From NCBI GenBank assembly GCA_016219485.1, contig JACRMX010000035.1, positions 1-33,235 on the forward strand: a stretch of 33,235 nt of DNA, written 5' to 3'. Positions within the stretch are counted from its first letter, which is position 1; every line of letters begins with the position of its first letter. Made by a program: the position numbers and the translations under genes. The notes beneath the pieces were generated by a model that saw only the letters and a list, made by a program, of their open reading frames with translations, did no database searches and was not told the DNA's origin. Positions 4,588 through 11,915 of the stretch are shown here, in pieces. This DNA is from Candidatus Aenigmatarchaeota archaeon. Its GTDB lineage: Archaea > Aenigmatarchaeota > Aenigmatarchaeia > GW2011-AR5 > JACRMX01.

Positions 4588-7449
4588 TTACAGCTTTTTA
4601 AGCCAGAATTTCGCTGAAGCCTTTTTAAAAGATACAGCCCCGGATGGGTTTCTCACATCTTTAAATTCTATGCTTTCGGCGCCCACCTTTTCTTTTATCT
4701 CTTTTTCATACTTTTTTAGTTTTTTGTTGTCAACTACCAGCGCTATTTCTTCACTGACAACAAGGCCCATTTCCTTCCTTTTTTTCTGAATCTCCCTTGT
4801 GAGCTCGTGCAGCAACGCCAGATCTTCATCTGCTTTGGTAATAAGCTCCACTGAAATTTCACCTTTCCTCTGTGGAGCCTTTGGCGTCCCAAGCCTGACT
4901 TTTTCCACGTTTGCAAGCCTTTCCACCACAGTGCATAATTTTTTGTCCATCTTCGCATCTGTCGTAAGCCCAGGAAGAGGCCACCGGAGCTTGATATCAT
5001 GGTCTTTTCTTATTGAATTTGTCATCGTTACTATTTCTTCTGCAACTATCATCTGCTCCTCCAATTTTTTATCAATAGCCTTTTCATCATGCTTTGGCCA
5101 TTTTTCCGTATGGACGGATTTTCCATACAAGTCGTAAAAGACATATTCTGCTACGAATGGCGTTATAGGAGCCATGAGTTTTGTCAGCTTGGTTAATGTT
5201 TCGGTTAAGGTAAAATTCACTGCTCTATCATTGCGCTCCCTTACCAGTTTAATATACGTTCTCGAGAGGTCGTTTACTATAAATTCAACAATACATCTTC
5301 CTGCTACATGGAAACGGAAATTCTCAAGGTCGTCTGTAGTTGATTTTATGAGCGAATTGAGTTTTGACAGAATCCACATGTCCTCTATCTGAAGCTCGTA
5401 TGCCTTGGTCTCTAGTTTTGTGTATGTTTTGAAATAGTTGTAAACATTCCAGAATATGTTTACAGACTTTCCGAGCTCCTTTGCGTTTTTCATCGAAAAT
5501 TTTTGCGTTTCCCACGGTGCTATGTCATAGCAGTAATAGAGGCGAAGAAGATCAGCTCCAAGTTTATTGTAAGCATCTTCTGCAGACACAACGTTTCCAA
5601 GGCTCTTGCTCATCTTCTCCCCTTTTTCATCAAGTGTCCACCCGTTCAGGCATACGGTTTCATAAGGCTTTGTGCCGAAAGTAGCCATGCTGCAAAGCAT
5701 CAGCGTATGAAACCATCCCCTTATCTGATCGCTGCTCTCATCTATCAGGTCAACTGTCCAGAGTTTTTCAAATAGCTCCTTGTTTTTTCCAGGGTATCCT
5801 AACGATGCCCATGGCGATATTCCGGAGTCAAACCACACGTCCATTATATCCTTTTCCCTTGCCATTTCACCTCCACATTCGCATTTCAGCGTTATTCTAT
5901 CAACCGTATTTTTATAGAGGTCTTTAACATGGCTGCCGCTTTCCTTTTTCAGCTCATCCAGGCTTTCCATGACCTTTTTTGCCCTGCATGAAGCACATAT
6001 CCAGACTGGAAATGGTATGCCCCAATACCTCTGCCTTGTTACAGCCCAGTCCGGAGATTCTGTTATTAAATTATGATAGCGTTCTCTGGCAAATTCAGGA
6101 AGCCAGTTTACTTTTTTGTTTTCTTTTATTATTTTTTCGCGTATCGTGTCCAGCTTAAGGAACCATTGCCGGCTCATTCTGTAGATAAGCGGAGTTTTGC
6201 ACCTCCAGCAGAGCGGATAGGAGTGCGTTATGCGGCTAGAATGCAGCAGAAGACCTTCTGCTCTGAGCGCGTCTATTATTTTTTCATCAGCGTTCTTGAC
6301 GAACAACCCTGCAAAATCCCCGGCTTCTGCTGTCAGCTCTCCTTTTTCATTTACAGGCGAGGGCTCAGGAAGATTGTAGTACTTTCCTATTTTATTGTCC
6401 ACATCACCATGCCCTGGAGCTGTGTGCACAAGTCCTGTTCCAGTATCCATTGTAACCATATGTCCGAATTCTTCCCCATCTTCTATCATTTTTTTTGCCT
6501 TTATTTTTCCCGCGACTCTCTTCTTCATTACGGGCACTGATAAAAGAACCTGATGCGCATTTTTGTTTTTCTTTAGTTTTTCCTGTTGCGGCACTTTAAG
6601 CACAGGATCATAACCCATTCTTTCAAGCTTCTTTCCAGGAAATTTTTCAAGAATCTGGTAGTCCATTTCTATTTTTTCAAGCTCCTCCAGCCTTTTTTCC
6701 GCGATTATAAGGATGTCATCTCCAACTTTGGCCTTTACATATATTTCATCAGGGTGTGCTACTATTGCAACATTTGCTGCAAGTGTCCATGGGGTTGTTG
6801 TCCATACAAGCAAATATTCTTTTCTCCCTTTAACAGGAAACTTTATGAATATAGAGGGGTCTTCCAGCGTCTTGTACGAGTCGCTGACCTCATATCCTGA
6901 CAGGACAGTTTCACACCGCGGGCACCAGAAACCAGGCTTCTTGCCTTCAATAAGCAGCCCCTTTTCAAACCACTGTTTTACTGTCCACCATCCACTTTCA
7001 AGGTAGTAGTTTTCAGATGTCAGGTATGGTTTAACCCATCCTCGCCAGACACCCATTTTTTTGTATAGATTTATCCATACAGGCTCATTGCCTTTTGCAA
7101 ATTTTTTGCATTCGTCTATAAATTTGTCTATGCCTATTTTTTCTTCTATGTCACTTTTGCTTTTTACACCGAGCCCTTTTTCCACTTCGTTTTCTATAGG
7201 CAGGCCACCACAGTCAAATCCCGGCTGAAACCATACGGAAAAGCCCTGCATGTATTTGAATTTCCCCCATATATCCTTGAATGTGGTTGTCTTTACATGG
7301 CCGACGTGCGGCATGCCGTTTACATAAGGCGGGCCATCAAGAAGATAAAATTTCTTTCTTTTCCAGTCCATCTGGACAATTGTTTCAGCTACCCCCTTTT
7401 CATGCCAGATTTTCTGGACTTTCTTTTCAATTTCTTTGGGATTATACAT
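4588..7449 (-). CDS. ileS: Isoleucine--tRNA ligase
   Basis: DGPPY, HVGH (HIGH), WTTTPWTL, GTGLVHTAPGHG, DW.V.RQRYWG, DQIRGWF, KMSKS; likely start ATG 7449 after GTGAT, overlapping the cimA stop. Confidence 0.95.
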   Translation of the reverse strand: MYNPKEIEKKVQKIWHEKGVAETIVQMDWKRKKFYLLDGPPYVNGMPHVGHVKTTTFKDIWGKFKYMQGFSVWFQPGFDCGGLPIENEVEKGLGVKSKSDIEEKIGIDKFIDECKKFAKGNEPVWINLYKKMGVWRGWVKPYLTSENYYLESGWWTVKQWFEKGLLIEGKKPGFWCPRCETVLSGYEVSDSYKTLEDPSIFIKFPVKGRKEYLLVWTTTPWTLAANVAIVAHPDEIYVKAKVGDDILIIAEKRLEELEKIEMDYQILEKFPGKKLERMGYDPVLKVPQQEKLKKNKNAHQVLLSVPVMKKRVAGKIKAKKMIEDGEEFGHMVTMDTGTGLVHTAPGHGDVDNKIGKYYNLPEPSPVNEKGELTAEAGDFAGLFVKNADEKIIDALRAEGLLLHSSRITHSYPLCWRCKTPLIYRMSRQWFLKLDTIREKIIKENKKVNWLPEFARERYHNLITESPDWAVTRQRYWGIPFPVWICASCRAKKVMESLDELKKESGSHVKDLYKNTVDRITLKCECGGEMAREKDIMDVWFDSGISPWASLGYPGKNKELFEKLWTVDLIDESSDQIRGWFHTLMLCSMATFGTKPYETVCLNGWTLDEKGEKMSKSLGNVVSAEDAYNKLGADLLRLYYCYDIAPWETQKFSMKNAKELGKSVNIFWNVYNYFKTYTKLETKAYELQIEDMWILSKLNSLIKSTTDDLENFRFHVAGRCIVEFIVNDLSRTYIKLVRERNDRAVNFTLTETLTKLTKLMAPITPFVAEYVFYDLYGKSVHTEKWPKHDEKAIDKKLEEQMIVAEEIVTMTNSIRKDHDIKLRWPLPGLTTDAKMDKKLCTVVERLANVEKVRLGTPKAPQRKGEISVELITKADEDLALLHELTREIQKKRKEMGLVVSEEIALVVDNKKLKKYEKEIKEKVGAESIEFKDVRNPSGAVSFKKASAKFWLKKL

Positions 7450-8953
7450 GACTATCACTTTTCAGTTTATCTATATAATATTTATAGCTATCAACAAGAA
7501 CACCAAAGGATGCTTTTATCAGGTCTGTTGAGCTTCTTATTGAACTCCATTCACTTCCATTATATGCAAATCTTGCTGTTACTGCAACTTCTGCTTCTGT
7601 TCCCATTTCACCAGGGGATATTGGTGCATCGTAATCTACAAGACAAACATCATCTACAGGATAGTAATTTGAAAGCGCCTTCTTGAGAGCCTTGTCAAGT
7701 GCATTTACTTCACCATCACCTTTGGAAGCTCCAAGTATAGCTTCACCGTTTATTTCAATTTCTACAGTAGCTTCTGCCTGAGTGCGATCTGTATTCAATG
7801 TCCTGAAACTTCTGACAATGAAAGGTTCATTGTATTCACCAAGCTCTTCTTTGATCATGAGGTAAGCTTGCGCATCTCCTATTTCTCTGCCACCAGTGTT
7901 TATTCTTTCAAGAATTTGTAAAACTCTTGGATCATCTCTTGAAACCTCATATCCCAATTCCCTCATAAATGCTGCTATGGCAGAACTTCCTGACTGATTT
8001 GATAGTGGAAATCTTCTATGGTTTCCAACTATTTCAGGTTCTACGTGTTCGTAAGCTATGGGATTTTTCAGAACAGCGCTTGTATGCACTCCGCCTTTAT
8101 GAGCAAATGCACTGGTTCCTTTGTAAGGTGCTTCAGGACTTATTCTCTGTCTGGATAATTTTGCTATCTTTCTTGAAACATTTGTAATGTCTGGTAAAAT
8201 ATCTTTATAGGAGCCATCTATTTTGCACAGGCTGCACATTAGTTCTTGTAAATCAAGATTGCCACATCTTTCTCCCAAACCATTCATTGTTCCCTGTACA
8301 TGAACAGAACCCGCTCTTATTGCTTCAAGAGTATTTGCAAGAGCAAGGCCGCCATCGTTGTGGCAGTGTATGCCAACAGGCATTGACGAATTTTTAACAA
8401 CTTCTTCTGTAATTTGGCGTATTTCCCATGGAAAGCACCCGCCTCTTGTATCGCAGAGAACCAACATATCAGCTCCTCCATTGCAAGCAGCTTCCAGGCA
8501 TTTCATAGCGTAATCCGGATTATCCTTGTGTCCATCATAAAAATGTTCAGCATCGTAAAAAACAGGCTTACCTGTTTTTTTAAGCCTACGAACAGATTTT
8601 TCTATTGTCTGCAAATAATCATCAGGTTTTTTTTCTATCAGGTTCACATGGAGCAGCCAGCTTTTGCCAAATATGGTGTAAACATCAGGGCTAGCCCTTA
8701 TTAATGCACTCAAATTTTCATCAGTTTCAGCGTCTCCTCTGGCTGTCATGCCAAAGGCAGCTATTTTTGCGCTGGTTCTGCTTACTCTTCTAAAATATTC
8801 GCTGTCAACAGGGTTTGAGTAAGGCCACCCACCTTCTATATAATCCAAATATGGAGACAATAGTTTTGTTATATCTAACTTATTCTGTAAACTAAATGAA
8901 ATACCAGACCTTTGTGCACCATCGCGCAATGTTGTGTCGTAAATTTCAACCAT
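7442..8953 (-). CDS. cimA: Citramalate synthase (LeuA/CimA family, EGGWP/DAEHF subtype) with C-terminal regulatory domain
   Basis: YDTTLRDGAQ, YIEGGWPYSNP, IFGKSW, FYDAEHFYDG, HCHND, GERCGN, AFAHKGGVH; C-terminal G.G.VNALD.AL allosteric domain. Confidence 0.82.
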   Translation of the reverse strand: MVEIYDTTLRDGAQRSGISFSLQNKLDITKLLSPYLDYIEGGWPYSNPVDSEYFRRVSRTSAKIAAFGMTARGDAETDENLSALIRASPDVYTIFGKSWLLHVNLIEKKPDDYLQTIEKSVRRLKKTGKPVFYDAEHFYDGHKDNPDYAMKCLEAACNGGADMLVLCDTRGGCFPWEIRQITEEVVKNSSMPVGIHCHNDGGLALANTLEAIRAGSVHVQGTMNGLGERCGNLDLQELMCSLCKIDGSYKDILPDITNVSRKIAKLSRQRISPEAPYKGTSAFAHKGGVHTSAVLKNPIAYEHVEPEIVGNHRRFPLSNQSGSSAIAAFMRELGYEVSRDDPRVLQILERINTGGREIGDAQAYLMIKEELGEYNEPFIVRSFRTLNTDRTQAEATVEIEINGEAILGASKGDGEVNALDKALKKALSNYYPVDDVCLVDYDAPISPGEMGTEAEVAVTARFAYNGSEWSSIRSSTDLIKASFGVLVDSYKYYIDKLKSDSHV

Positions 8954-8976
8954 AAAACCACCTGAGAAAGCAGGAG

Positions 8977-9051
8977 CTATATAATTAGAATAATGTTAAT
9001 AATGCCAGAGCTCAGCCTAAAGAAATCATTTTTGTACAATGGGGCATTCAC
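8977..9051 (-). CDS. Putative Ile-rich leader peptide (MNAPLYKNDFFRLSSGIINIILII*)
   Basis: GTG-start 24-codon ORF, 6 Ile codons among last 8, stop 23 nt upstream of cimA ATG; not in ORF track. Confidence 0.55.
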   Translation of the reverse strand: MNAPLYKNDFFRLSSGIINIILII

Positions 9052-9091
9052 TTTTCATCTCTGACACCTTTCCTATTCTTGTGCAGAAGCG

Positions 9092-9107
9092 TTTAAAAAG
9101 CTTTATC
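9092..9107 (-). promoter_or_regulatory. BRE/TATA promoter for leader-cimA-ileS
   Basis: Minus strand GATAAAG-C-TTTTTAAA about 40 nt upstream of the leader start. Confidence 0.5.
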
Positions 9108-9133
9108 TACTCTATAGAAAAATAAAGAAAAAT

Positions 9134-9206
9134 GGCTGTGTTGATGTAACGGCTAGCATAAGGGACTGTGGATCCCTTCGTCTGGGTTCGAATCCCAGGC
9201 ACGGCC
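9134..9206 (+). tRNA. tRNA-His(GTG), genomically encoded G-1
   Basis: Acceptor GCTGTGT/GCACGGC, anticodon arm AGGGA-CTGTGGA-TCCCT, T arm CTGGG-TTCGAAT-CCCAG, discriminator C. Confidence 0.95.
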
Positions 9207-9209
9207 CTC

Positions 9210-9461
9210 ATGAAATATACTATTGTTTTTATTATGCTTTTTGTCATGCTTCTGGCGTCAGGCTGCATAACAGGAGACGTTGCAAGAGAAACGACGACTA
9301 CGCTCTCGGCAGAGCAGATGAAAAACAGGGACTACAGAGACTGCATGAATAAATGCAGCGAGTATAGCACCTGCACGAGATACCTGTCTGAAGCAGAATG
9401 CGACCATATTAAAGAAGACTGCAGGAGATGCATGGATGATATTGCAGCAAAATATGGGTAG
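9210..9461 (+). CDS. Small Cys-rich putative lipoprotein
   Basis: MKYTIVFIMLFVMLLASGC lipobox-like signal; six further Cys (CMNKC...C...C...CRRC). Confidence 0.65.
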   Translation: MKYTIVFIMLFVMLLASGCITGDVARETTTTLSAEQMKNRDYRDCMNKCSEYSTCTRYLSEAECDHIKEDCRRCMDDIAAKYG

Positions 9462-9557: not shown

Positions 9558-10421
9558 GTGAATAAGTTTTTTATCGCAGCTGTTGTGGGCATTTTTTTCG
9601 GATTTGTAGCATACAATATTGCATCCATAACTTCGAAGGAAAATATTTTTCCTGTGAACAATAAACAATATTTTTCAGAGGTGTACTCTGCGATAAACAA
9701 TGCTGAAAAATCTGTTCATATTTCAATGTTTACCATAAAATATTATTCCGAGTATGAGGAGAGCAATGAAAAAAAGCTTCTTGATGCGCTTATCAATGCA
9801 GCCAGGCGCGGGCTGGATGTGAAGGTTATGACAGAAGGCGGCAGCTCCTTTCTTGGAGACGCATTTGTGCTGGAACAGAGGCCTGCATGCGACTACCTTT
9901 CATCTGGCGGAGTTGATGCGCGCTTTGATGCTCCGGACAGGACTACGCATACCAAGCTTGTTATCATTGACAGTAGTGTTATAATTCTGGGTTCGACAAA
10001 CTGGAACTATTATGCACTGGAAGAAAACAACGAAGCCAATATAGTTGTAGAATCACGTGAGGTGGCGGAAAAATATGAGAACTATTTTGAATCGCTGTGG
10101 TCAGAGTCTGTTGGATGCTCTTTTAACACGACAGCAGGCTGCGACTCAGTCAATGCCATTCTGTCGAACAGAAATTACTGCAGCGGAAAGACAGCTTTTG
10201 CAAACGGCACAGCAGAAAATGTTATTTTCAAGGCATCCAAAAAAGGCAACAACTACACGACATTTTCTATTGGCGAAATCAGCGTGTTTTCATGGGGACA
10301 CCCTAATGTAACAGATGGCCAGCTGGTTTTTGTAAAAGGCATATACAGCAAAGAAAAAACCATAGGAGATTATGTTTTTACCGATGAAATAGAGGCAGAG
10401 AATGTAGAAATTCTTCCATGA
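9558..10421 (+). CDS. Membrane-anchored PLD-family (single HKD) nuclease/phosphodiesterase with C-terminal OB-fold-like domain
   Basis: N-terminal hydrophobic helix; HTKLVIID...GSTNW...NNE motif; C-terminal SKKGNNYTTF...V.VKG.Y OB-like pattern. Confidence 0.8.
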   Translation: MNKFFIAAVVGIFFGFVAYNIASITSKENIFPVNNKQYFSEVYSAINNAEKSVHISMFTIKYYSEYEESNEKKLLDALINAARRGLDVKVMTEGGSSFLGDAFVLEQRPACDYLSSGGVDARFDAPDRTTHTKLVIIDSSVIILGSTNWNYYALEENNEANIVVESREVAEKYENYFESLWSESVGCSFNTTAGCDSVNAILSNRNYCSGKTAFANGTAENVIFKASKKGNNYTTFSIGEISVFSWGHPNVTDGQLVFVKGIYSKEKTIGDYVFTDEIEAENVEILP

Positions 10422-10876: not shown

Positions 10877-11011
10877 ATGATTAATATGTTAATTCATCTT
10901 TTTGGATTATATAAAACGAGAAAAGGTTACTCAAAAGGACAAATTAATGTAGTTATAATAATTATCTTATTTTTATTGCTTCTCTTATTTATTTTGACAA
11001 GTAGACGATAA
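10877..11011 (+). CDS. Possible 44-aa hydrophobic peptide (KGQ + hydrophobic helix)
   Basis: MINMLIHLFGLYKTRKGYSKGQINVVIIIILFLLLLLFILTSRR*; begins right after previous stop; overlaps transposase 3' end on opposite strand. Confidence 0.3.
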   Translation: MINMLIHLFGLYKTRKGYSKGQINVVIIIILFLLLLLFILTSRR

Positions 11012-11915
11012 TTTTATTTTGCTTCTATAAATCAAATTCAACCATTTCTCTTTGCCTAAATTAAGCTCTACTCCAGCCTTCTGTGCAGGTATCATATCTA
11101 TGCCCTGATGCACCCGCAGAAAGTTATACCATATAACAAACATCTCCAAAATTTGCTCTGCTGATTTGGAATTCTTGAAGCCACGCATAACTTTAACCCG
11201 TTCTCTGATAGTTCCCTGTATGCGTTCTATCATGTTGTTGCGGTAATCGTGCCTATCAATTATGCGGATATGCTGGACATTATCTTTTGGCACCCTGTTA
11301 GAATACCAAGTTTTAGGTATGGTGTTCATGTAAGCAGGTAATCCATCAGTAAAAACATATATAGGCTTTTCTGCTCTTTGTCTGGTTTTTCTGAATAAAC
11401 CCTTAGCACCATCCAATCCCTTTTCTTTGGCATAATGTGTAGCGACCAGAAACCTTGTTTCTTTGTCTATCAAAGCAAAAAGGTAGTGTTGTTCTTTGTT
11501 ACATTTGATATATATTTCGTCAGCATGATAAACACCCGAAAGGCTGAGATTTAACGAGCTGATGAAAGGCTTTATTGTCATAACGTATCTGCGTATCCAT
11601 CTCAGAATACTCATGTGGCTTACTTCTTTATCACTGAATTGATTTACATGAGTTGCCACTTTTCTCAAACTCATGCCATTCATGTAGAGGTCAAGACATG
11701 CTGTTATCATTTCACGCTTCTTTTTGCATTTCATGAAGCCATCATCAACCACGAAGGTTTCCTTACAGTTGTTGCACTTGTATCTTCTCTTCTTTGTTGT
11801 GCAGTTGTAACGAAAACCCCATCTTATTTATTATTTCTTCACTTTGACATTTCGGACACTTCTCTGGTGCAAAATAGCTTTCGTCTTTATAACCTCTTTT
11901 TGTTTTAGTTTTCAT
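10985..11915 (-). pseudogene. IS6-family DDE transposase with N-terminal Zn ribbon, frameshifted near 11826-11833
   Basis: HADE / FTDG / NNMIER DDE triad, HTH GMSLRKV...ILRWI; N-terminus MKTK...CPKC..EEII joins RWGFRYN...YKCNNC only if a 4-nt AATA duplication is removed. Confidence 0.82.

What the first reader, a model, noticed from the sequence alone, without database searches (positions are those of the whole stretch)
8954..9107. Candidate isoleucine-sensing leader-peptide attenuator on an archaeal cimA-ileS operon
Seen: on the minus strand between a BRE/TATA-like box (9092-9107) and cimA is a 24-codon ORF (GTG 9051 to TAG 8977) ending ATT ATT AAC ATT ATT CTA ATT ATA TAG = IINIILII*. Right after the stop, CTCCTG-CTTTCT-CAGGTG can form a short hairpin (CCTG/CAGG) that covers the cimA SD AGGTGG (8963-8958). 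GAGCT inside the leader can alternatively pair with AGCTC after the stop. cimA overlaps ileS by 8 nt. Established: citramalate synthase opens the threonine-independent Ile pathway, and bacterial branched-chain operons use leaders with runs of cognate codons. Inference: a ribosome stalled on Ile codons would cover the 5' arm and free the SD, jointly inducing Ile synthesis and Ile-tRNA charging. I know of no well-characterised archaeal Ile leader. Caveats: AT-rich DNA yields Ile codons by chance, the hairpin is weak, and the best-spaced start (ATG 9058 after AGGTG) is out of frame by one base; one fewer A in ATGAAAAGTG would give MKVNAPLY...IINIILII.
Basis: partly seen in the sequence, partly recalled or inferred. 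Interest (0 to 1): 0.88.

Follow-up and report, generated by a model that had tools for sequence, protein, structure and literature searches.

The report
Isoleucine leader peptide before archaeal ileS
A 24-codon mini-gene ending in a run of isoleucine codons sits in front of the isoleucyl-tRNA synthetase operon of a tiny-genome archaeon and recurs in three related lineages, so it looks like the amino-acid-sensing leader peptides that are so far known from bacteria.

Summary
The ORF GTG 9051 to TAG 8977 (minus strand) ends IINIILII*. It lies 23 nt before cimA, and cimA overlaps ileS by 8 nt. It is not chance: the 650-kb genome has only 6 places with at least 6 Ile in 8 codons, and 1 of 3000 shuffles of the region reaches that.

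In the organism's class, 17 of 371 genomes carry this cimA, always directly before ileS. Of 14 loci with enough upstream DNA, 4 from three families carry an Ile-rich short ORF that ends 23-81 nt before cimA. These ORFs differ by synonymous changes and one in-frame codon indel. The other 10 loci have the leader's start fused to cimA. In 40 cimA-less relatives, 0 have such a run before ileS. Bacterial cimA genes carry classic Ile leaders with terminators.

The "out-of-frame" ATG 9058 is a conserved overlapping uORF, not an error. The rest of the isoleucine pathway was not found, so the element most likely tunes IleRS and an orphan CimA. The hairpin mechanism is weakly supported in the window and inconsistent across loci. 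A TATA-like hexamer inside the Ile run is a live rival. I read it as an Ile-tRNA-sensing leader peptide, with no archaeal precedent in five literature searches.

The parts
9092..9099 (.). TATA-like box TTTTTAAA. It is the predicted promoter of the leader-cimA-ileS transcript on the minus strand, and may also serve the divergent tRNA-His gene.
   Evidence: Sequence. A box of the same kind lies about 40 nt before the first start codon in L022 and the f36 loci, and 31-33 nt before it in L023 and L002 (sequences, counted by hand). In this genome TATA-like hexamers peak 27-31 nt before leaderless ATGs, so the transcript would start near 9068. No transcription start data exist.
9043..9070 (-). Conserved 28-nt 5' element: the SD-like AAGGTG, the first start ATG 9058 and the second start GTG 9051.
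   Evidence: A degenerate pattern for it matches 11 of 14 class loci. It matches once in the whole 650-kb genome on both strands.
9026..9058 (-). Overlapping uORF1, MKSECPIVQK*, from ATG 9058 to TGA 9028-9026.
   Evidence: Frame f0. It is homologous to MKGECRILE* (f36 loci) and MTGEYRIG... (L010). All of these end in TGA.
8977..9051 (-). Leader ORF of 24 codons, VNAPLYKNDFFRLSSGIINIILII*.
   Evidence: Its GTG aligns with the second start of L023 (ATG, in frame with that locus's Ile run) and with the cimA start of the f36 loci and L010.
8980..9003 (-). Ile-codon run: ATT ATT AAC ATT ATT CTA ATT ATA, which is 6 Ile in 8 codons.
   Evidence: Rarity is shown. The genome's long ORFs prefer ATA (6978 ATA, 3957 ATT, 2172 ATC), whereas the run uses ATT 5 times out of 6.
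8979..8984 (-). TATA-like hexamer TTATAT inside the end of the Ile run, 31 nt before the cimA ATG. This is a possible internal promoter and the basis of a rival reading.
   Evidence: It sits at the genome-wide peak position for TATA-like hexamers. cimA is one of only 3 of 296 genes that have both this signal and an SD.
8945..8990 (-). Predicted stem-loop. The 5' arm (8990-8971) is the last Ile codons, the stop and CTCCTG. The loop is 8970-8965. The 3' arm (8964-8945) covers the SD and AUG of cimA.
   Evidence: The minimum-energy fold is -12.1 kcal/mol, z -1.4, and 9.7% of shuffles fold as well. The same arms appear. It is not significant on its own.
8958..8963 (-). Shine-Dalgarno AGGTGG of cimA.
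   Evidence: Sequence. SD-like tetramers peak 9-13 nt before ATGs in this genome.
7442..8953 (-). cimA, a citramalate synthase family gene of 503 aa.
   Evidence: TIGR00977 at 464 bits, cutoff 450. Pfam domains HMGL-like, HCS_D2 and LeuA_dimer.
4588..7449 (-). ileS, isoleucyl-tRNA synthetase. The likely start is ATG 7449; the longest ORF starts at GTG 7458.
   Evidence: TIGR00392 at 804 bits. The junction is shown. It is the only match in the genome to the first 300 residues at E<=1e-30.
9135..9207 (+). Divergent tRNA-His (GTG) gene. It bounds the intergenic region.
   Evidence: ARAGORN and Rfam RF00005 at 48.6 bits.

Best explanation
The 24-codon ORF is a leader peptide that reports the supply of charged tRNA-Ile to the cimA-ileS operon.

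Proposed mechanism:
1. Transcription starts a few bases before the conserved element at 9070-9043 (inferred).
2. Ribosomes start at GTG 9051, and also at the overlapping ATG 9058 uORF, and read into six Ile codons just before the stop (inferred).
3. When Ile-tRNA is scarce, a ribosome waits on these codons. It covers the last Ile codons, the stop and the following CTCCTG, which otherwise pair with the Shine-Dalgarno and AUG of cimA 23 nt downstream. Initiation at cimA rises, and through the 8-nt overlap so does initiation at ileS.
4. When Ile-tRNA is plentiful, the ribosome leaves at the stop and the stem reforms.

This is translational attenuation of the ermC kind, driven by a hungry codon rather than a drug.

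Shown here: the ORF, its rarity, its recurrence with synonymous change in relatives, its link to cimA-ileS, and the absence of the remaining Ile pathway.

Inferred: the transcript start, translation of the ORF, stalling, and which structure is controlled.

Because the pathway is missing, the physiological target is most likely the cell's only IleRS gene, together with an orphan CimA of unknown role.
For: 1. Rarity.
- 6 places in the genome have at least 6 Ile in 8 codons.
- 1 of 3000 shuffles matches the window. For L002, L022 and L023 the counts are 28, 3 and 13 of 3000.
- It is the only single-amino-acid run in a short ORF before a long ORF that survives inspection in this genome. The scan gave 8 candidates and I inspected two of the others.

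2. Recurrence.
- cimA is followed by ileS in 15 of 15 class loci that have downstream DNA.
- 4 of 14 loci that could be evaluated, from families f1, f3 and f38, carry Ile-rich ORFs of 24-36 codons with 6, 10, 9 and 9 Ile. They end 23, 81, 35 and 38 nt before cimA.

3. Coding signature.
- L022 and L023 share N-I-G-T and I-I-G-I-I, with ATC/ATT and ACA/ACC differences and a 3-nt indel.
- L002 has I-I-G-I-I with GGG in place of GGC.
- Leu, Val, Phe and Met are scarce in the tails.

4. Control. Of 40 cimA-less relatives, 0 have at least 6 of 8 Ile within 250 nt before ileS. One has 5, at -235.

5. Analogy. Bacterial cimA loci carry Ile leaders followed by a hairpin and a T run. Counts are 6 of 42 metagenome loci and 5 of 66 genome loci with at least 5 of 8 Ile, plus shorter leaders.

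6. The leader's start region is under selection.
- The 28-nt element is shared with loci whose CimA is only 42-45% identical.
- It is unique in the genome.

7. cimA has an SD. In this genome an SD is nearly exclusive with an own TATA: 82 genes have TATA only, 65 SD only and 3 both, of 296 (Fisher p 3e-8). That fits a gene translated from a longer transcript.

8. Structure.
- In the minimum-energy folds of the window and L022 the last Ile codons pair with the cimA SD and AUG. In L023 the pairing reaches the AUG region. L022 has z -3.4 and L023 z -3.1.
- Masking a stalled ribosome raises the unpaired probability of the window's ribosome-binding site from 0.32 to 0.59.
Against: - There are no transcript or translation data. 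No RNA run holds the stretch.
- The window's own fold is not better than shuffles (z 0.22; z -1.4).
- The unmasking model is inconsistent across loci: L022 0.20 to 0.29, L023 0.37 to 0.22, L002 0.42 to 0.41.
- 10 of 14 class loci lack the Ile run, so it is dispensable.
- The Ile run is out of frame with the best-placed start, ATG 9058, and depends on GTG 9051, which has no well-spaced SD of its own. In L022 the run is in the first start's frame. The window copy could therefore be decaying.
- The end of the run is a TATA-like hexamer at exactly the genome's modal distance from an ATG. It could drive a leaderless cimA transcript that bypasses the leader.
- The four loci are kin, and L022 and L023 share a family.
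- Ribosome footprint sizes are assumed from bacteria.
Confidence: 0.5

Rival explanations
1. It is an Ile-sensing leader peptide, but the controlled step is transcription. In this reading the ribosome's position at the end of the leader decides whether RNA polymerase stops at the T-rich tract or hairpin that follows the stop codon, as in bacterial attenuators, or it changes mRNA stability.
For: - A hairpin begins at or right after the leader stop in all four loci. It is strong in L022 (-13.9 kcal/mol, z -3.0) and moderate in L023 (-10.0, z -1.8).
- T runs follow the stop within 25 nt: T6 in L023, T5 in L002, T4 in L022, and T3 and T4 in the window (sequences).
- Bacterial cimA leaders seen here use a hairpin plus T-run terminators.
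- From recall: archaeal RNA polymerase terminates at oligo-T.
Against: - No terminator-like site was scored on the minus strand at 8954-9107.
- The T runs in the window are short, and one of them is the spacer between SD and AUG.
- No alternative antiterminator is evident.
- A stalled ribosome upstream would not by itself prevent hairpin-independent oligo-T termination, so the direction of regulation is unclear.
Confidence: 0.17
2. There is no sensing. The AT-rich run is promoter DNA for a leaderless cimA-ileS transcript, and the open frame across it is incidental.
For: - TTATAT at 8984-8979 starts 31 nt before the cimA ATG. That is the peak position for TATA-like hexamers in 296 genes of this genome, where most promoter-bearing genes look leaderless.
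- In L022 and L023 the run lies 42-56 nt before cimA. It could act as a TATA box there with a leader of about 20 nt (sequences).
- The upstream box at 9092-9099 could belong to tRNA-His alone.
Against: - A TATA box needs about 8 nt, whereas the runs span 24-48 nt in one reading frame with GGN codons interspersed.
- Hundreds of promoters in the genome yield only 6 such runs, and 0 of 40 ileS promoter regions have one.
- In L002 the run ends 81 nt before cimA and no TATA-like hexamer lies about 30 nt before that ATG.
- The ORFs start close to a conserved upstream box and stop right after the run in all four loci.
- The 28-nt element upstream is conserved.
- cimA keeps an SD, which genes with their own TATA in this genome almost never have.
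Confidence: 0.13
3. The window copy is a relic. An ancestral Ile leader read from the first start, as in L022, has been frame-shifted. Most ribosomes now make only the 10-codon uORF and the Ile run is rarely translated.
For: - ATG 9058 has the well-spaced SD (AAGGTG, 6 nt), and its frame stops at 9028-9026, before the run.
- In L022 the Ile run is in the frame of the homologous first start.
- 10 of 14 loci have lost the run altogether.
Against: - L023, in another family, has the same two starts 7 nt apart, with the Ile run in the second frame and a proper ATG there.
- The second start is the only available start of cimA in several f36 loci, so it is used.
- The run and its stop are intact, and it is the rarest kind of stretch in the genome.
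Confidence: 0.1
4. The ORF encodes a small hydrophobic protein with its own function, such as a membrane micropeptide, and is not a sensor.
For: The tails are hydrophobic and are conserved as I-I-G-I-I in three loci.
Against: - The hydrophobic residues are almost only Ile: 6, 10, 9 and 9 Ile against 5, 1, 2 and 3 Leu, Val, Phe or Met over the whole peptides.
- The hydrophobic stretches are 8-12 residues long, too short for a membrane span.
- The ORF occurs only before cimA-ileS.
- Bacterial counterparts are followed by terminators.
Confidence: 0.05

Closest known systems
Bacterial leader-peptide transcription attenuators of branched-chain amino acid operons (ilvL, ivbL, leuL and thrL of enterobacteria are recalled; Actinobacterial ilvB leaders come from PMC1262725, passages read). 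This group includes the Ile leaders before bacterial cimA seen here.
   Same: - It is a short ORF between the promoter and the first gene, with a run of cognate codons just before its stop.
- It precedes the same enzyme family, cimA. Examples are a Syntrophaceae MAG (L111), a delta-proteobacterial MAG (L115) and a Komeilibacteria MAG (L162), with leaders such as MFRNSITIIIILGIIIEGANM*.
   Different: - The host is an archaeon with TATA-type promoters.
- No hairpin-plus-T-run terminator and no antiterminator were found in the window.
- The spacer to cimA is only 23 nt.
- The operon carries an aminoacyl-tRNA synthetase and no biosynthetic pathway.
- No Rfam family covers either the bacterial or the archaeal versions.
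Translational attenuation by a stalled ribosome in a leader ORF (ermC and cat type; ErmCL paper PMC5499644 seen as search listing and abstract only; the mechanism is otherwise recalled).
   Same: A leader ORF sits directly before a stem that holds the ribosome-binding site of the next gene. A ribosome paused near the end of the leader would open it.
   Different: - The proposed trigger is lack of charged tRNA-Ile at a codon run, not a drug plus an arrest peptide.
- The stem is weak in the window, and the predicted effect is inconsistent among relatives.
T-box leaders before ileS in Actinobacteria that sequester the Shine-Dalgarno sequence (PMC1262725, abstract and T-box section passages read).
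   Same: The regulated gene (ileS), the signal (charging of tRNA-Ile) and the proposed level of control (translation initiation through SD occlusion) are the same.
   Different: - A T-box binds uncharged tRNA directly and needs no translation.
- Nothing T-box-like was found here (Rfam at E-value up to 10).
- The sensor here would be a translating ribosome.
pheST leader (pheM) of gamma-proteobacteria. It is named in the conclusion passage of PMC1262725 as classical attenuation of a synthetase operon; details are recalled.
   Same: An aminoacyl-tRNA synthetase operon is controlled by a leader peptide rich in its own amino acid's codons.
   Different: It is bacterial and acts at a transcription terminator, with no co-transcribed biosynthetic-type enzyme.

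Membership tests
Leader-peptide attenuator (general: a cis-acting short ORF that senses one amino acid) | A short ORF with a statistically unusual run of codons for one amino acid near its end. | tested here: met
   6 Ile in the last 8 codons. There are 6 such places in the genome. 1 of 3000 shuffles reaches this.
Leader-peptide attenuator (general: a cis-acting short ORF that senses one amino acid) | It lies between the promoter and a gene that is functionally tied to that amino acid. | tested here: met
   It lies 23 nt before cimA-ileS. A predicted TATA box lies 34-41 nt before the first start and is conserved in position in relatives. The promoter is predicted, not mapped.
Leader-peptide attenuator (general: a cis-acting short ORF that senses one amino acid) | It is conserved in relatives as a coding feature, with the run kept and codons varying. 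| tested here: met
   4 of 14 class loci in three families, with synonymous differences and an in-frame indel. 10 of 14 loci lack it.
Leader-peptide attenuator (general: a cis-acting short ORF that senses one amino acid) | The ORF is translated, and downstream expression responds to supply of the amino acid. | not testable with these tools
   No RNA or ribosome data exist. No RNA run holds the stretch.
Classical transcription attenuator (trp, his and ilv type) | An intrinsic terminator (a G+C-rich hairpin followed by a T run) after the leader. | tested here: not met
   No terminator-like site lies on the minus strand between 9107 and 8954. The hairpin has 4-8 pairs and is followed by GG, then T4, then the ATG.
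Classical transcription attenuator (trp, his and ilv type) | Mutually exclusive antiterminator pairing that overlaps the leader. | tested here: inconclusive
   GAGCT (9013-9009) can pair with AGCTC (8978-8974). This pairing is not in the minimum-energy or centroid fold and is not conserved in the other three loci.
Translational attenuation (ermC and cat type) | A stem sequesters the SD or AUG of the downstream gene, with its 5' arm within reach of a ribosome paused in the leader. | tested here: inconclusive
   It is present in the minimum-energy fold of the window (z -1.4), L022 (z -3.4) and L023 (z -3.1), but not L002 (z -0.6). Modelled unmasking goes 0.32 to 0.59, 0.20 to 0.29, 0.37 to 0.22 and 0.42 to 0.41.
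T-box riboswitch | Match to the T-box covariance model with a specifier loop. | tested here: not met
   There is no T-box match at E-value up to 10 in 8700-9400. There is none at gathering score in L002, L022, L023 and L013.
Citramalate synthase (TIGR00977) | Score above the curated equivalog cut-off, plus the domain set. | tested here: met
   464.1 bits against 450. HMGL-like, HCS_D2 and LeuA_dimer domains. DTTLRDG and an H-x-H-N-D stretch are present (these motifs are recalled).
Threonine-independent isoleucine pathway | LeuCD, LeuB, IlvBN, IlvC, IlvD and IlvE are present together with CimA. | tested here: not met
   PF00330, PF00180, PF01450, PF00920 and PF01063 were each found in 0 of 5 cimA-bearing genomes. 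PF02776 was found in 1 of 5. Genome completeness ranges from 75% to 93%.

The most novel reading that the evidence does not exclude
Archaea have ribosome-mediated amino-acid sensing by leader peptides. In this tiny-genome lineage, which cannot make isoleucine, an Ile-codon leader, together with a conserved pair of overlapping start codons 7 nt apart, sets the level of the only IleRS. It also sets the level of an orphan CimA-like protein whose role is not biosynthesis. That protein might be an Ile-binding partner or regulator acting through its LeuA-type allosteric domain, or a maker of citramalate for exchange with the host.
Probability: 0.2. Interest if true: 0.9.

Novelty: new variant of a known kind. 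Interest (0 to 1): 0.72.

Why it matters
Leader-peptide sensing of tRNA charging is a textbook bacterial mechanism. In my five searches of the open literature I found no archaeal example.

If this leader works, it shows three things:
- Coupling a translating ribosome to control of the next gene also operates with archaeal promoters and ribosomes.
- A host-dependent archaeon monitors an amino acid that it must import.
- Synthetase levels in such cells are regulated rather than constitutive.

It also gives a compact element of about 120 nt that can be tested in tractable archaea. Finally, it flags an unexplained, conserved pairing of a citramalate synthase with IleRS in genomes that lack the rest of the pathway.

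Tried and rejected
- **Rfam.** A scan of 8700-9400 at E-value up to 10 found only the tRNA. Ten bacterial and archaeal loci at gathering score gave 0 matches.
- **Whole-leader fold.** It is not special (z 0.22).
- **Consensus fold of the 5' element.** Eleven loci gave -1.3 kcal/mol, so there is no structure.
- **Phylum-level search.** It returned the same 371 genomes as the class search, and its loci could not be cut out.
- **Metagenome scan with CimA.** It gave 47 loci, none with ileS behind cimA. These form a separate clade in a quick FastTree with long branches, which I use only as a rough guide.
- **Genome-collection scan.** It gave 69 loci, mostly bacteria. Three other archaeal records (L119, L128, L163) have at most 4 Ile in 8 codons before cimA.
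- **The class-I synthetase behind cimA in some bacteria.** It has about 25% identity to IleS and is ValRS, not IleRS.
- **Scan of the genome for other single-amino-acid runs in short ORFs before long ORFs.** It gave 8 candidates. The Tyr-rich one lies in promoter DNA before an Orc1/Cdc6-like gene, and the Leu-rich one is antisense to coding sequence. I did not inspect the other five apart from the leader itself.
- **Sequencing runs.** No RNA holder is listed. Contigs of the probable source run cover the whole stretch with no difference. A second sample covers 8842-9005 and 9047-9261 with no difference. Nothing independent covers 9006-9046. Two runs from other studies match only the tRNA and the start of cimA.
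- **The one-base error idea at 9052-9055.** Rejected; the reasons are in the report.
- **A programmed +1 shift at the uORF's TGA.** It would join the uORF to the Ile frame. I considered it and left it as speculation, because nothing tests it.
- **The search of earlier findings.** It was closed. Supplementary files of papers were not opened. They could hold leader-peptide lists, for example for PMC4833913 or PMC1262725, that bear on the novelty claim.
- **Complex prediction, structure prediction and the large protein searches.** Not used, because no claim here rests on them.
Full report
**What is there.**

On the minus strand, the ORF listing returns an ORF at 8977..9051 (24 aa, GTG start). It translates to VNAPLYKNDFFRLSSGIINIILII*. 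Its last eight sense codons are ATT ATT AAC ATT ATT CTA ATT ATA.

Twenty-three bases further on is the ATG of a 503-aa protein. It passes the curated cut-off of the citramalate synthase model TIGR00977 (464 against 450 bits) and has the HMGL-like, HCS_D2 and LeuA_dimer domains.

The next gene is ileS (TIGR00392, 804 bits). Its likely start, ATG 7449, overlaps the cimA stop by 8 nt.

**Whose genome.**

- The window is contig 54 of a 650,667-base assembly in 66 contigs, 75% complete.
- TBP is found in 5 of 5 genomes tested, and among the 14 control genomes only the four archaea match.
- The window also encodes a Nop56/58-type protein, an aRF1/Pelota-type protein, HMG-CoA reductase and an ADP-dependent sugar kinase.
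- It is a small-genome archaeon whose class holds 371 species genomes of 0.3-2 Mb.

**Is the Ile run chance?**

- Across all six frames of the genome there are 917,231 stop-free 8-codon windows. Only 6 distinct places have at least 6 Ile, and this is one of them.
- Dinucleotide-preserving shuffles of the 180 nt before cimA reach the observed value in 1 of 3000 trials.
- A scan for any single-amino-acid run in a short ORF within 150 nt before a long ORF gave 8 candidates. I inspected two others: one is promoter DNA and one is antisense to a gene.
- The run uses ATT five times out of six. Long ORFs of the genome prefer ATA (6978 ATA, 3957 ATT, 2172 ATC).

**Relatives.**

With CimA as query, 17 of 371 class genomes have a match at E<=1e-60. 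Only 3 of 70 genomes in the order do. In every one of the 15 loci with DNA beyond cimA, ileS follows directly.

Fourteen loci have at least 100 nt before cimA. Four of them carry a short ORF rich in Ile that stops just before cimA:

| Locus | Family | Leader peptide | Ile / codons | Spacer to cimA |
|---|---|---|---|---|
| window | f1 | VNAPLYKNDFFRLSSGIINIILII* | 6 / 24 | 23 nt |
| L002 | f3 | MSAITSSVNSRSISIQNIIGIIGIGIIA* | 10 / 28 | 81 nt |
| L022 | f38 | MTGKIKNIGTGIESVFEAIIGIIIIE* | 9 / 26 | 35 nt |
| L023 | f38 | MYATTNIGTVAISEKNLRQISAIGQVCQSIIGIIIQ* | 9 / 36 | 38 nt |

Their own shuffles reach the observed Ile density in 28, 3 and 13 of 3000 trials for L002, L022 and L023.

The differences between them look like coding differences:
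- L022 and L023 share N-I-G-T and I-I-G-I-I, with ATC/ATT and ACA/ACC changes and one whole-codon indel.
- L002 has I-I-G-I-I with GGG in place of GGC.

The other ten loci (nine of family f36 and L010 of f23) have at most 4 Ile in 8 codons.

**The start of the leader.**

Eleven of the 14 loci, the window included, share an element made of:
- an SD-like AAGGTG;
- a first start codon 5-7 nt later;
- a second start exactly 7 nt after the first.

In the window this is 9070-9043. The pattern occurs once in the whole genome.

The first start opens a 9-16 codon uORF that always ends in TGA. It reads MKSECPIVQK* in the window, MKGECRILE* in f36 and MTGEYRIG... in L010.

The second start is in frame with cimA itself in f36 and L010, and in several of those loci it is the only available start. 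In the window it opens the Ile leader. L023 lacks the SD-like part but has the same two starts 7 nt apart, again with the Ile run in the second frame.

No base needs to be removed. A contig from a second sample covers 9047-9261 without any difference.

The simplest history is this. A leader with an Ile run stood before cimA, and in two lineages the stretch between the leader's start and cimA was lost, fusing them. I infer this and a quick tree in which L010 pairs with L002. The tree has long branches and is not a firm result.

**Controls and comparators.**

*Control.* I cut 250 nt before ileS out of 40 class genomes without cimA. I chose these 40 from the 150 matches listed, of 340 genomes with a match, taking the best-scoring first and then a spread. 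None has at least 6 of 8 Ile. One has 5, at -235, far from the gene. The run therefore travels with cimA and is not a property of ileS promoters or of AT-rich spacers.

*Bacterial comparators.* Bacterial relatives of this CimA (40-45% identical) do not have ileS behind them: 0 of 47 metagenome loci and 0 of 69 genome loci. Some have valS. Many do carry classic leaders before cimA:
- 6 of 42 and 5 of 66 evaluated loci have at least 5 of 8 Ile in a short ORF.
- In the sequences I read, each is followed by a hairpin and a T run.
- Shorter 9-10 codon leaders with two or three Ile occur in the clade that includes the Acidimicrobiia records.
- Named examples are Syntrophaceae, a delta-proteobacterium, Komeilibacteria and Staskawiczbacteria MAGs.

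No Rfam family covers them.

*Other archaea.* Three other archaeal records with this CimA type show no Ile run.

**Promoters, and the main rival.**

In 296 genes of this genome with an unambiguous ATG, TATA-like hexamers peak sharply 27-31 nt before the ATG. This means most promoter-bearing genes are leaderless. SD-like tetramers peak 9-13 nt before the ATG. The two signals nearly exclude each other: 82 genes have TATA only, 65 have SD only, 3 have both and 146 have neither (Fisher p 3e-8).

cimA is one of the three with both, because the end of the Ile run (TTATAT, 8984-8979) falls exactly at -31. This cuts both ways:
- It may be a real internal promoter that gives a basal, leaderless cimA-ileS transcript. 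That would be sensible for an essential synthetase.
- The SD says that cimA is normally read from a longer RNA.

A TATA box alone does not explain several features:
- 24-48 nt of in-frame Ile codons interspersed with Gly codons;
- the ORFs that begin next to a conserved upstream box and stop right after the run;
- the L002 locus, where the run ends 81 nt before cimA;
- the conserved 5' element.

The upstream box TTTTTAAA (9099-9092) lies about 40 nt before the first start. The same spacing holds in L022 and f36 (counted by hand). That predicts a transcript start near 9068. The same box may also serve tRNA-His on the other strand.

**How it may work.**

In the minimum-energy fold, the last four leader codons and CTCCTG (8990-8971) pair with the SD and AUG region of cimA (8964-8945).

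| Locus | Fold energy (kcal/mol) | z against shuffles |
|---|---|---|
| window | -12.1 | -1.4 |
| L022 | -25.8 | -3.4 |
| L023 | -24.1 | -3.1 |
| L002 | -31.3 | -0.6 |

A hairpin starts at or right after the leader stop in all four loci.

I then forced a ribosome-sized stretch at the last Ile codon to be single-stranded and measured the unpaired probability of the cimA ribosome-binding site:

| Locus | Free | Ribosome stalled at last Ile codon |
|---|---|---|
| window | 0.32 | 0.59 |
| L022 | 0.20 | 0.29 |
| L023 | 0.37 | 0.22 |
| L002 | 0.42 | 0.41 |

So the anatomy suits translational attenuation by a ribosome waiting on hungry Ile codons, but thermodynamic modelling does not establish it. 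Control of transcription at the T-rich tracts that follow the stop remains possible. No terminator-like site was scored in the window.

**What it regulates.**

Families for LeuC, LeuB, IlvC, IlvD and IlvE were found in 0 of 5 cimA-bearing genomes each, two of them over 90% complete. All or nearly all control genomes matched. A TPP-enzyme domain was found in 1 of 5.

cimA is therefore an orphan here, although its catalytic-looking motifs are intact (the motifs are recalled). Sensing charged tRNA-Ile to adjust the only IleRS gene does make sense: the genome has one match to the first 300 residues, and the cell must import isoleucine. Why a citramalate synthase is kept in front of ileS in 15 of 15 loci is unexplained.

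**Known or new.**

Leader-peptide attenuation is a known bacterial kind. A synthetase operon under such control (pheST) and ileS under a translational T-box are in print (PMC1262725, passages read).

Five searches of the open library found nothing relevant:
- 'leader peptide' + attenuation + archaea + isoleucine;
- 'citramalate synthase' + DPANN: 0 papers;
- 'citramalate synthase' + 'leader peptide': 1 paper, which mentions them in unrelated places;
- 'leader peptide' + attenuation + 'in archaea';
- 'leader peptide' + archaeal + 'ribosome stalling'.

None listed a paper on an archaeal leader peptide. I judged those by titles and abstracts only, and subscription journals are not covered.

I therefore rate this a new variant of a known kind. 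The logic is familiar. What is new is the domain of life, the promoter and translation context, and a target with no biosynthetic pathway behind it.

**Limits.**

- There are four leaders, two of them from one family.
- All evidence is from sequence.
- Promoters are predicted.
- Ribosome footprints are assumed from bacteria.
- The assemblies are metagenomic and incomplete.

Noticed in passing
window 9043-9070 (-); L010-L018, L021, L023: Two start codons exactly 7 nt apart recur across families. The first opens a 9-16 codon uORF that always ends in TGA. The second opens the Ile leader (window, L023) or cimA itself (f36 loci, L010). The uORF peptide is similar across orders (MKSEC.. and MKGEC..).
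   Followed up: partly
L011-L018, L021 (about 60-75 nt before the conserved YDTTLR of cimA): In the f36 loci a hairpin seems to start at the uORF's TGA, with different arm sequences in different loci. I saw this by eye in the alignment. A consensus fold of that alignment, which covers the 5' element and about 35 nt beyond it, found no shared structure. I made no pair-by-pair covariation count for this hairpin.
   Followed up: no
whole genome G000 and G054, G170, G269, G289: Citramalate synthase is kept directly before ileS although LeuC, LeuB, IlvC, IlvD and IlvE families were not found. It is an orphan enzyme of unknown role.
   Followed up: partly
window 9135-9207 (+) and 9211 onward: tRNA-His (GTG), with G-1 encoded and no CCA, is followed 4 nt later by an ORF that starts MKYTIVFIMLFVMLLASGC.., which looks like a lipoprotein signal. 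ARAGORN finds no other plain tRNA in the 650-kb assembly.
   Followed up: partly
window 10985-11752 (-): An IS240-type DDE transposase ORF (PF13610, E 5.7e-21) lies 2 kb from the operon, next to a PLD-like protein at 9558-10421.
   Followed up: no
L112 and L114 (Omnitrophota and Planctomycetales MAGs), and similar loci L028, L032, L034, L039: In these bacteria cimA is followed by valS (ValRS, NF004349 at 867-1017 bits). It is preceded by a gene ending in an ACT-like ...ISTSEISISCII... stretch, which looks like aspartate kinase. This is another cimA-synthetase pairing.
   Followed up: partly
class-wide ileS matches: The first 300 residues of IleS fall into two identity groups relative to the window, about 55-72% and about 43-51%. 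These groups do not follow presence of cimA. cimA-linked IleS occurs in both groups.
   Followed up: no
G000:C28:3100-3342 (-): One of two TBP loci in the genome shows a TAA inside the matched open frame.
   Followed up: no
genome-wide, G000: TATA-like hexamers peak 27-31 nt before ATG codons and almost never co-occur with an SD. This indicates a mostly leaderless transcriptome, with SDs used for internal cistrons.
   Followed up: yes
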